From: Pecten maximus
Lineage: Eukaryota
Length of the DNA: 64,000 bases
Assembly: GCF_902652985.1 (NCBI RefSeq)
Contig: NC_047019.1
Span: 17,794,001 to 17,858,000 of the forward strand
Direction: 5' to 3'
The notes under the pieces were generated by a model. That model was given only the letters and a program-made list of their open reading frames with translations. It made no database searches and was not told the origin of the DNA. Positions 39,622-42,600 of the stretch are shown here, piece by piece. Every line of letters starts with the position of its first letter. Position 1 is the stretch's first letter. The translations under genes were made by a program, and so were the position numbers.

Positions 39622-42600
39622 ATGTATTGGATGTGGATAGTGTTCGGATGTGTTGGAGGGATCATCATCTTCCTTGTTGTCGTTTTTTGTCTCTATACAT
39701 ATAAAAAATCGAGGAATAAGAAAAAACGAGATGTAGAGGTAAGTACCCTGAGGTACTATGAAAACTAGTAAACAAAGTTGTTTATGAAAATTGATAAGAT
39801 GACAGGTTAAATGCCTATTGAGAGTGTTCAAGGAGATATAATTACTACATTAATGAATATTGCTGTTAAATAACGCTATTTTCAGATTGAGAGCGAAGGA
39901 ATAGTCTGTTCTTTGTAAACTATACCGGATACACAATTTATAGATGTCATATTTACAAAATATCAGTACAAATATTTCACATTTTTACCAGTAACCAACT
40001 CTATTTTGTATTTCACATTGTAGCATTTTGATGATGTAGAGAATGGAAACGCACCAAAACGGGTATGACCTCTCCGTCATGTACACATAAATGAAAATTC
40101 CCGAGGAAATATAATTTGTTACCTAATTGGAATTGGAATCTCACGAGTAGAGATAAACGTTTCTAAAAATAAACTAAGGCTATCGTTCAGACACTTAACT
40201 ATATTTGAAGTTCGCCAATATATTTCTTTTCTAAATGTTTTCAAAAGTTCTTCATTATTGTCTCAGAATGAACACGTAACACTGACATATGAGATATTTA
40301 TAGATCACCTCAGAGTCTACTTTCGTTATCAGACTCCTTACAAAACTCCACGTTTTAATCAGTAGTATATATGTCTCTGAATTAACCTTTGTTTGTTTAT
40401 CGTTACCATAGCTGCGAAGCGTTAGGAACACGATATTGGACTTCACTGAGGAACCAAAGGTACATAATTCTTAAAAAAAATAATAAAAAAAATATAAAAA
40501 TGTTCGGACAATCTGTATAAGAGTGTTCAAAGATACATTATTGTATCTTGATATAAATAAAGAGCATTGATGTACCATAGGCTTACCGCATTTAATTATG
40601 TTCCTGGTTTTTATTACGATAATAAAGGAGGTTAATACTGTATTTATTTATCTATTTATTTATCACGATATTTAATGTGGATAAATCTGTAGTTTATTTA
40701 TCTGTCTATTCATTACGATATTTTTTATATGTATCGTAGAGTAATTCAACACCTTTAGATTCATCAGGTGTCAATTTCTTATAAATTGATATCTACTGGC
40801 TGACACAATTTTACCGCGTTATTATTTGTTTGTTTGATAGGGTTTACCAAATGTCGGGGAAACGTGTTACATGAACTCGATGGTACAGGTGAGGTAACAG
40901 ACATTATTGTGATATAGATCAATTCACATCTAGAAGAGGTCTTCCTATATTAGTTATTCCATAAACTTATTAAGAGAAATGCTGGCATTTAATGTTACTA
41001 GAAGTATCAAAATATTATTCTTTGTTTGGCTTAGATGTCGATTTTGATGTCAAACAATAGCCCTTTCATACACACCCAGACGAGATGGAGTGAACGTTTA
41101 TACATGTATAACAGTATTATAGAAAGCATTATTTGCATTGCATACAAAATTAAAAAAAAAACAAAAACAAAAACAAAAACAAAAAACAAAACAAAAACCA
41201 AACAAACAAAAAAACAAAAAAAAGCAAAACATCCCATTATCTATAGACTTGTAACTTAAATTGTTCGATTCACTGGTTACCCCGATTCTACTTTATGGCT
41301 GTGGAATCTGGGGATATGAAAACGTAAGTATAATTGAAAGCAAAAATTCACTTTCAATTTTGTTTTGCATTGTTATCAGCAAATTTAGAATTTCAAACTG
41401 AAAGTTACCTGTTGAAATTGGTAGATGGATTGGTATACCACGTAATAATCGTGATTGCTTATTATGTCATAACGGTATTGGTGATAAATACCACTATTTA
41501 TTTCAATGTAATAATGATTTAGTGGCAGAGTGTAGACACAAATACATTCCAAATTTTACTTTACAAATCCAAGTTTAACTAAAATGAGAGGTATGTTTGA
41601 AATTTGTAACAAGTCATTATTATCTAGAGTGGGTCATTTCCTCAAAAATGTTGAAAAAACTTTGTATTTCACTTAGATAATATATAAGTATATCATTCCA
41701 TATGTTGTATTGTACTTATTATATTTCTATGTATAGTGAGATAACATTGCTTATAGATACGTTAGTGTATACTCTCTCGTATTTTCACGTTATTACCCTG
41801 TAAACCACGTACATTGTTTTGTCATATTGACCCCTTGTTACACTCTTTGTGTGTCCTGAGTGAATAAAAAATCTTGAAATCTTAGATATATGCTATGTGC
41901 TTTATATTTAGTGTTTAGCATGGAGTCCATGTCTACGTTCACAACTGGCAGACCAGATTCGGAAACAGGTAATTATCATATAAGTAGAGGTTACACAAGG
42001 AGTATTTCTTTCACTCGAGTTAGTTAATTTTTAAAAGTTACTTGAGTGAAAGAAATACCATATATAACAACCACGAGTTTGTATGACCTGTTTCTACTAT
42101 AATAGAAAAGATATTCTGAGAATAAATTGACCTGTTTTGTGTCAACGTATTTTTTTCACAATATCAGTTGGGTGTAAGGATATGACCTAAAGCGAATTGC
42201 CGCTTATTAATATGCAAAACTGACTGATATTTGTGGAAATATTACAGTTTGTTACAAATCATAACAAAAAAGAAGCAAGATTACTTTTTCAAAGGAATAA
42301 ATTGATGAAATCTATACATGTATATATTTTTGAAAAATGAAAAAATAACCCTTCAAACTACTTCCTGTGCGTTATCATTTTCGGGACGTTAGCCAATCAA
42401 AACGCACTGAACCACTTGATTAGAAAATAATCCCGGCTAGAGTTCATTTTATCAACCAATCAAAACGCATTTAGAGTTTATTCCACGTGTGGTATAAACT
42501 GATTGTTATTCAGCAGTTGTAATGCAATTTTGATTGGTTGACACGATGACCTTTGACCGGGACTATTTCTTTAATTACATGATTCAATGCAATTTGATTG

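What the first reader, a model, noticed from the sequence alone, without database searches (positions are those of the whole stretch)
39622..40888. USP16/45-type deubiquitinase with a transmembrane anchor in place of the ZnF-UBP domain
Seen: the exon at 39622-39738, absent from the ORF track, encodes MYWMWIVFGCVGGIIIFLVVVFCLYTY-KKSRNKKKR, a hydrophobic helix followed by a basic stop-transfer cluster. It splices in phase through a 39-nt exon directly to the Cys box. The C-terminal half (ISLPPVLVLQINRFEQRGYELFKVNERVTFPKSLDMARFCS; YSLFGVVNH; long insert before WFSVSD) resembles USP16/USP45. Established: USP16/45 are soluble with an N-terminal ZnF-UBP, and USP30 is the family member with an N-terminal TM anchor. 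Inference: this is a lineage-specific membrane-tethered DUB that converged on the USP30 topology, or a very divergent USP30-like gene.
Basis: partly seen in the sequence, partly recalled or inferred. Interest (0 to 1): 0.72.

Follow-up and report, generated by a model that had tools for sequence, protein, structure and literature searches.

The report
Membrane-anchored deubiquitinase family of bivalves
This scallop gene is a spliced, transcribed copy of the normally soluble ubiquitin-removing enzyme USP16/45 that carries a predicted membrane anchor in place of its ubiquitin-binding zinc finger; it belongs to a small scallop-oyster gene family that likely strips ubiquitin from membrane proteins of the secretory pathway.

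Summary
The 14-exon model translates exactly to RefSeq XP_033740202 (Pecten maximus, 570 aa). RNA contigs join the hydrophobic exon to the catalytic exons. The protein has a USP fold, triad C77/H463/S544 and no ZnF-UBP.

It is not USP30: the genome holds a separate USP30 and a separate ZnF-bearing USP16/45. The gene shares 6 of 11 catalytic-region introns exactly with USP16/45 and none with USP30. A diagnostic 48-nt Cys-box exon is absent from 18 of 18 other USP genes. Trees alone do not settle the parent.

It is one of at least 8 paralogues in this genome, in a clade found in four scallop genera, oysters and an ark shell; 13 of 19 members carry a strong N-terminal hydrophobic helix. The anchor is far more hydrophobic than USP30 anchors (3.0-3.4 versus 1.4-2.2) and is followed by a conserved DxE motif. 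The likely destination is therefore the ER-to-endosome/plasma-membrane route, not mitochondria. One subfamily has a signal-like segment, a lumenal loop and a TM helix, a receptor-like layout. Location, activity and substrates are untested.

The parts
39526..39621 (+). 5' leader of exon 1 (true start not mapped). Candidate acceptor at 39494/5, in-frame TAA at 39505-39507, two short out-of-frame uORFs (ATG 39572, 39590) and a third further up (ATG 39507)
   Evidence: RNA contigs start at 39526, 39559, 39578 with no loose 5' ends listed; uORFs
39622..39738 (+). Coding exon 1: Met, uncharged stretch 1-27 (predicted signal-anchor helix, KD19 3.09), basic cluster 28-36, start of acidic motif
   Evidence: AlphaFold helix 3-30; RNA joint 39738>40024
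40024..40062 (+). Exon 2 (39 nt, phase 0-0): linker with DxE motif (D45-V-E47)
40412..40459 (+).
40841..40888 (+). Exon 4 (48 nt, phase 0-0): Cys box, N72 and catalytic C77; exon form shared only with USP16/45 and the paralogues
41912..41968 (+). Exon 5, USP thumb
43411..43580 (+). Exon 6, ends phase 2 (intron shared with USP16/45)
44267..44363 (+). Exon 7, QxD box (Q169, D171)
44738..44759 (+). Exon 8 (22 nt), ends phase 1 (intron shared with USP16/45)
45065..45153 (+). Exon 9, fingers; first zinc-knuckle Cys replaced (H224; Y in the other 20 family rows), C227 kept
46142..46192 (+). Exon 10
46410..46800 (+). Exon 11: low-confidence, likely disordered insertion (residues about 255-317) and second CxxC (C367, C370)
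47976..48058 (+). Exon 12, ends after RFEQ (intron shared with USP16/45)
48182..48268 (+). Exon 13
48652..49068 (+). Last coding exon (tandem acceptors 48652/48655 give 571/570 aa): His box (H455, catalytic H463), insertion, S544-D545, stop
49069..49618 (+). 3' UTR covered by RNA contigs (end not mapped)
   Evidence: X3 to 49507, X7 to 49618

Best explanation
The gene is a duplicate of USP16/45 in which the ZnF-UBP exons are replaced by one exon encoding a strongly hydrophobic N-terminal helix, giving a predicted single-pass membrane deubiquitinase that likely enters the ER, likely moves on to Golgi, endosome or plasma membrane, and would there remove ubiquitin from the cytosolic tails of neighbouring membrane proteins. 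Steps and their standing: (1) transcript and exon chain: shown. (2) USP fold with all catalytic residues: shown in sequence and model; activity inferred. (3) Descent from USP16/45 by duplication: strongly supported by introns (about 0.93). (4) Reverse signal anchor, N out and C in the cytosol: inferred from 27 uncharged residues followed by 7 K/R in 9 (about 0.9; the positive-inside rule is recalled). (5) ER rather than mitochondrial targeting: inferred from hydrophobicity by the Tom20 rule (about 0.75). (6) ER exit through a DxE signal: motif conserved, function inferred. (7) Substrate choice by place instead of by ZnF-UBP, sparing membrane proteins from ubiquitin-driven degradation or sorting: inference, substrates unknown.
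For: Exon model equals P0001 exactly, all GT-AG; RNA joints. Pfam UCH E 8.9e-43 and no zf-UBP, against zf-UBP in 6 of 6 USP16/45 controls. No ZnF-like tblastn hit near the gene, while the same queries hit the genome's own USP16/45. Model pLDDT 78.6 with USP folds as top matches. Best PDB sequence match is USP16, E 5.5e-25 against 6.4e-16 next. Ser at the third catalytic position as in USP16, USP30 and USP45 (PMC10867860, passages). Introns: 6 of 11 exactly shared with G000 USP16/45, 0 with G000 USP30. The 48-nt phase 0-0 Cys exon is in 9 of 9 family loci checked and in USP16/45, not in USP30 nor in 18 of 18 other USPs. Anchor KD19 is 3.01-3.37 in 7 of 7 closest relatives against 1.39-2.16 in 15 of 15 USP30s. 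High TMD hydrophobicity redirects Tom20 to ER-Golgi even with basic flanks (PMC2192658, abstract and section 14). DxE within 32 residues of the TM in 6 of 7 A/B members (0.92 expected from shuffles) and in oyster P0035. A di-acidic signal exports the membrane-anchored kinase LMTK2 from the ER to endosomes (PMC4642647, abstract). Paralogue subfamily D has a second, N-terminal hydrophobic segment and a loop of about 60 aa with N-glycosylation sequons in 2 of 3, which fits the secretory pathway.
Against: Trees do not place the family: with USP16/45 at SH-aLRT 87, unresolved, or beside USP30 at 61; it never nests inside USP16/45 with support. Basic residues right after the TM also fit the mitochondrial signal (PMC2192658). 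KD is a crude measure; no dedicated TM or signal predictor was available. The shuffle counts treat related proteins as independent, so they overstate significance. DxE is absent in P0002 and in subfamilies C and D. A bipartite basic pattern (5 of 7) could point to the nucleus instead. 5 of 19 family N-termini are weakly hydrophobic or not at all (KD19 1.5 or less). The 5' end is not mapped. No location, activity or substrate data exist.
Confidence: 0.66

Rival explanations
1. Full functional convergence on USP30: the anchor sends it to the mitochondrial outer membrane or peroxisome, where it opposes mitophagy-type ubiquitination.
For: N-terminal TM plus basic flank is the Tom20/USP30 layout (PMC2192658 abstract; PMC8927814 passages). 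Ser triad is shared with USP30. Subfamily C members have moderate anchors (1.4-2.5), so some paralogues may do this.
Against: KD19 3.09 lies well above all 15 USP30 anchors (max 2.16); raising hydrophobicity made Tom20 ER-bound (PMC2192658 section 14). A normal USP30 is present in the genome. The linker is 41 aa against 9-12 in 14 of 15 USP30s.
Confidence: 0.12
2. A nuclear-envelope or latent nuclear enzyme: the two basic clusters form a bipartite NLS that brings it to the inner nuclear membrane, or a cut in the linker frees a soluble USP16-like histone deubiquitinase.
For: Pattern KR-x(10-16)-K[KR]x[KR] in 5 of 7 A/B members against 0.69 expected (the NLS consensus is recalled). The parent USP16 is listed as nuclear and as a histone DUB (PMC4755399, passages). 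The linker is predicted disordered.
Against: The first cluster is already explained as a stop-transfer signal. The pattern is missing in the Ylistrum and Argopecten orthologues (P0003, P0002) and in oyster, C and D members. No cleavage evidence.
Confidence: 0.12
3. The mapped start is incomplete or the hydrophobic stretch is cleaved: upstream exons add an ectodomain, or the stretch is a signal peptide.
For: 38 codons upstream of M1 are open in frame and alternative acceptors exist. Subfamily D does have an upstream lumenal part. A strong donor lies at 37159/60 and was not tested with reads.
Against: No in-frame Met upstream and an in-frame stop at 39505. RNA contigs start at 39526-39578 without loose 5' ends. 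Orthologues from three other genera start 0-7 residues from the same place. The helix runs straight into K/R with no polar cleavage region.
Confidence: 0.06
4. A very divergent USP30 orthologue or paralogue.
For: One quick LG+G4 tree put the family beside USP30 at support 61; a USP30 structure ranks second in Foldseek among near-equal USP hits.
Against: Separate USP30 at G000:C8:36.70-36.71 Mb, 95% identical to P0223 over 340 residues; 0 shared introns; USP30 rows form their own clade at 99-100; the AU test rejects family plus animal USP30, p 0.0196.
Confidence: 0.02
5. A decaying or catalytically dead copy.
For: Long branch; loss of one zinc-knuckle Cys; one RNA contig with a frameshifting T; low contig depth.
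Against: Intact 570-aa frame; N72, C77, H455 and H463 kept in all full-length family rows; orthologues kept in four genera at up to 70% identity over the core.
Confidence: 0.04

Closest known systems
USP16/USP45 (single invertebrate ancestor gene; PMC5381560 passages)
   Same: USP domain with Ser-Asp after the His box; six exact intron positions including the 48-nt Cys exon; long insertions in the fingers and before the last box; best PDB sequence match.
   Different: No ZnF-UBP; N-terminal hydrophobic helix instead; first zinc-knuckle Cys replaced; fast-evolving, multi-copy; the true orthologue is elsewhere (G000:C5:46.03-46.06 Mb).
USP30
   Same: N-terminal TM followed by basic residues and a cytosol-facing USP domain; Ser triad (PMC8927814, PMC10867860 passages).
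   Different: No shared intron, separate clade, separate gene in this genome; anchor far more hydrophobic; longer linker with DxE; likely a different membrane.
USP19 (ER isoform)
   Same: USP tethered by a TM to the secretory pathway with its catalytic domain in the cytosol, acting only where anchored (PMC4755399 passages); the closest functional analogue.
   Different: USP19 is anchored at its C-terminal tail; no sign of close kinship was seen, but USP19 was not in the trees.
LMTK2-type membrane-anchored enzymes
   Same: A membrane-anchored cytosolic enzyme domain that uses a di-acidic ER-export signal (PMC4642647 abstract).
   Different: A kinase, unrelated; its motif is in the far tail; analogy only.

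Membership tests
USP (peptidase C19) deubiquitinases | UCH domain above Pfam cut-off and USP fold | tested here: met
   147 bits vs 23.9; Foldseek top hits all USPs
USP (peptidase C19) deubiquitinases | Cys, His and two acidic/polar catalytic residues, oxyanion Asn | tested here: met
   N72, C77, H463, S544, D545
USP (peptidase C19) deubiquitinases | Cleaves ubiquitin conjugates | not testable with these tools
   needs probe labelling or Ub-AMC assay
USP16/45 | N-terminal ZnF-UBP domain | tested here: not met
   no PF02148 in P0001 or in the 19 other family proteins scanned, present in 6 of 6 controls; no remnant near the gene
USP16/45 | Exon-intron pattern of the catalytic region | tested here: met
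   6 of 11 exact by alignment; a 7th by hand count from the nearest Cys; three more same-phase in variable loops; controls 0 of 18 for the Cys exon
USP16/45 | Serine at third catalytic position | tested here: met
   S544; 35 of 36 USP16/45 rows, but also 13 of 13 USP30 rows, so not diagnostic between them
USP16/45 | Nests in the USP16/45 clade | tested here: inconclusive
   sister at 87, polytomy, union with five mollusc-type rows not rejected, p 0.122
USP16/45 | Is the genome's orthologue | tested here: not met
   a ZnF-bearing USP16/45 exists at G000:C5:46.03-46.06 Mb; this gene is a derived paralogue
USP30 | N-terminal TM before the USP domain | tested here: met
   (prediction)
USP30 | Moderately hydrophobic, mitochondria-type anchor close to the Cys box | tested here: not met
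   KD19 3.09 vs 1.39-2.16; linker 41 vs 9-12 in 14 of 15
USP30 | Orthology (clade, introns) | tested here: not met
   0 shared introns, separate gene; outside the USP30 clade; AU p 0.0196
USP30 | Mitochondrial/peroxisomal location and Lys6 chain preference | not testable with these tools
   features from PMC8927814 passages; needs experiments

The most novel reading that the evidence does not exclude
Scallops, oysters and ark shells have turned USP16/45 into an undescribed family of about ten membrane deubiquitinases per scallop genome, each addressed to a different membrane by its own anchor: reverse signal anchors (this gene), moderate mitochondria-type anchors, and a receptor-like form with signal segment, glycosylated lumenal loop, TM helix and cytosolic USP domain that could couple an outside cue to deubiquitination.
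Probability: 0.3. Interest if true: 0.75.

Novelty: new variant of a known kind. Interest (0 to 1): 0.55.

Why it matters
The reviews read here name two TM-anchored USPs in mammals: USP30 at mitochondria and peroxisomes, and a USP19 isoform at the ER. This is an independent origin of the design, from a soluble nuclear/cytosolic parent, kept across scallops and oysters and expanded to at least 8 copies. It gives a natural test of whether a membrane address can replace a ubiquitin-binding domain in substrate choice. It also offers candidates for control of receptor turnover in bivalves, and a possible receptor-like deubiquitinase. Databases label these proteins only 'USP16-like', 'USP22-like', 'USP27-like' or 'uncharacterized'.

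Tried and rejected
HMM competition (USP16/45 vs USP30 profiles): the family scored higher on USP16/45, but so did 9 of 9 outgroup rows, so it is uninformative. Foldseek: all USPs score alike, so it does not separate subfamilies. Careful mixture-model tree: not finished after two runs; only quick trees are reported. Scans for TM exons upstream of unannotated paralogues: clear only for C5:13.36 Mb, so the N-termini of the C5:11.8, 25.47 and 25.50 Mb genes remain undetermined. ESM Atlas: no usable hit for the subfamily-D N-terminus, generic UCH clusters for P0001. Earlier scan findings: none. The region at 41263-41510 looked like a possible exon but reads as a decayed retroelement fragment and is skipped by all three joints 40888>41912. 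No complex prediction was run.

Full report
OBSERVATION. The window is G000:C5:17794001-17858000 of a 918-Mb animal genome. Its last USP exon matches an NCBI protein named 'USP16-like isoform X2 [Pecten maximus]' (P0001). Fourteen exons from 39622 to 49068, all GT-AG, translate exactly to P0001. A further 48-nt exon at 40412-40459 lies between the last two.

RNA. Eight of the 24 listed runs were laid; all are contigs, and no DNA run was laid as control. X4 has one contig running 39559-39738 > 40024-40062 > 40412-40459 > 40841-40888 with a loose end equal to exon 5. X5 and X10 show the same chain from exon 2 or 3 on, and X11 has a 14-letter loose end equal to the start of exon 2. Joints from 40888 onward are listed at GT..AG in X3 and X8, the first two also in X9. 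The joints 46192>46410 and 46800>47976 are not among the rows shown (13 hidden), but the piece positions in the single X3 contig fit them. Against: one extra T at 39682 in X4 only, and an unspliced X7 contig across the exon-1 donor. The 5' ends lie at 39526-39578 with no loose ends listed; the true start is unmapped.

THE PROTEIN. Residues 1-27 are uncharged (best 19-residue Kyte-Doolittle mean 3.09) and 7 of the next 9 are K or R. AlphaFold on a 63-row alignment gives helix 3-30, a low-confidence linker and a confident USP domain (mean pLDDT 78.6); fold matches are USPs. Pfam finds UCH and no zf-UBP. N72, C77, Q169, D171, H455, H463, S544 and D545 are in place. Ser at this position is reported only for USP16, USP30 and USP45 among human USPs (PMC10867860, passages).

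WHICH PARENT. The genome has its own USP30 (C8:36.70-36.71 Mb) with a typical mild anchor, and its own ZnF-bearing USP16/45 (C5:46.03-46.06 Mb). Of the 11 introns from the Cys box on, 6 fall at the same aligned column and phase as in USP16/45 and none as in USP30. By hand a seventh matches (five residues after the Cys of FCS/YCS), three are same-phase in variable loops and one is unshared. The 48-nt phase 0-0 Cys exon occurs in 9 of 9 family loci checked (one confirmed through exact mapping) and in USP16/45. It is absent from USP30 and from 18 of 18 other USP loci in which the motif was readable; 3 of 21 control loci gave no motif. Trees agree that the family is one clade (21 rows, 100; 14 rows, 99) outside USP30, but they do not place it: 87 with USP16/45, open, 61 with USP30. 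The AU test rejects union with five animal USP30s (p 0.0196) and does not reject union with five USP16/45 rows that resemble the G000 gene (p 0.122). The 52-row trees left out 38 of the 90 rows to save time. The verdict on ancestry therefore rests on introns.

THE FAMILY. A Cys-exon pattern finds 9 sites in G000 and 0 in the reversed control. With C6:14.21 Mb this gives 8 chromosomal loci, plus two on contig C240 that look like second copies of the C5:25.47 and 25.50 Mb genes (L005 against L004). Two more His-box exons at C5:11.78 and 11.82 Mb had no Cys exon found. A profile search of 1.84 billion representatives ranked family members first and then mostly USP16/45 (best 150 shown). Named members come from Pecten, Mizuhopecten, Argopecten, Ylistrum, Saccostrea and Tegillarca; three used here are unnamed. 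The C5:11.8 Mb paralogues were not recognised in that list, so divergent members in other molluscs may have been missed and the range is a lower bound. In Mizuhopecten the orthologue and its nearest paralogue have adjacent accessions on records of equal contig length, which suggests tandem duplication. Of 19 family N-termini, 13 have KD19 of 2.3 or more, one 1.82, four 1.33-1.50 and one none. Of 73 ZnF-type USP16/45 rows, 72 stay at 1.48 or less. In this gene and in paralogues B and D the TM exon ends in phase 0 and is followed by two or three short phase-0 exons before the Cys exon, which fits a single recruitment of the TM exon.

HOW IT LIKELY WORKS. An uncharged N-terminus with a basic C-flank predicts N-out, C-in insertion (positive-inside rule, recalled). 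For Tom20, moderate hydrophobicity plus a basic flank means mitochondria, while higher hydrophobicity makes the helix a dominant ER signal anchor (PMC2192658, abstract and section 14). All 7 closest relatives score 3.01-3.37 and all 15 USP30s 1.39-2.16. A DxE motif follows the basic cluster in 6 of 7 of them and in an oyster member. Such motifs export membrane enzymes from the ER (PMC4642647, abstract); the shuffle expectation of 0.92 ignores kinship. Subfamily D (three genera) adds an N-terminal hydrophobic segment and a loop of about 60 aa with a conserved YCA motif and sequons in 2 of 3, all on one exon in G000. I therefore commit to a secretory-pathway membrane DUB that finds substrates by proximity, working like ER-anchored USP19 (PMC4755399, passages) rather than like USP30. 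Location, activity and substrates are inferred. The main rivals are mitochondrial targeting and a nuclear-envelope or released nuclear form (bipartite basic pattern in 5 of 7).

NOVELTY. The sequences are in RefSeq under automatic names. Five searches of the open-access library gave no listing that describes this family (titles and abstract starts only). Subscription journals are not covered, and no supplements were read; genome-paper supplements could list a USP expansion. Papers seen: PMC2192658 abstract and one section; PMC4642647 abstract; PMC4755399, PMC5381560, PMC8927814, PMC10867860 and PMC10611586 passages only. Verdict: a real, expressed, new architectural variant of a known enzyme kind, forming a bivalve gene family; not USP30, and not the USP16/45 orthologue.

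Noticed in passing
G000:C6:14.19-14.22 Mb (L024, L025, L031); proteins P0025, P0027, P0053/P0220: Paralogue subfamily D: signal-like segment, loop of about 60 aa with a YCA motif and sequons, TM helix, then USP domain; a receptor-like deubiquitinase layout. Full-length on six Logan contigs of 2.1-2.7 kb in the P0025 cluster.
   Followed up: partly
L045:2-5749, L046:1566-4139, L044:622-3516 (G000 C13:27.66 Mb, C16:25.12 Mb, C311): Long intronless frames in which a PIF1-type helicase is followed by a UCH/USP-like domain, in several copies; looks like a Helitron-type element carrying a USP domain (element type recalled).
   Followed up: partly
P0156 with P0096, P0154, P0139, P0167 (P0156, P0096, P0154 are unnamed Logan records): A separate ZnF-less clade inside USP16/45 (99); P0156 has an N-terminal hydrophobic helix (KD19 2.55), so TM recruitment onto USP16/45 may have happened twice.
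   Followed up: no
G000:C5:11.78-11.89 Mb and 25.44-25.51 Mb: Two tandem clusters of these USP paralogues (about four and three genes); N-termini of most are undetermined.
   Followed up: partly
P0031 (ENA, 1606 aa): Three tandem USP16/45-like catalytic domains in one protein.
   Followed up: no
window about 24700-35249 (+): Arginine-kinase-type phosphagen kinase gene directly upstream, same strand (Pfam hits).
   Followed up: no
window 10819-11559 and 18363-19136 (-): Two long single frames with SHIPPO repeats (ODF3-like sperm-tail proteins), likely a tandem pair.
   Followed up: no
window 54824-55720 (+): 299-codon frame with a DZIP3-type HEPN domain (E 4.4e-26), start of a downstream multi-exon gene.
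   Followed up: no
window 37373-39452: 21-bp tandem arrays in opposite orientations (37373-38816 and 38959-39452) ending just before the USP gene's 5' end.
   Followed up: no
window 41263-41510 (+): Decayed fragment that resembles the end of a non-LTR retroelement frame, inside intron 4 (read; label recalled, no Pfam hit for the short piece tested).
   Followed up: partly
L027:911-1314 (G000 USP30): The scallop USP30 gene uses a GC-AG intron.
   Followed up: yes
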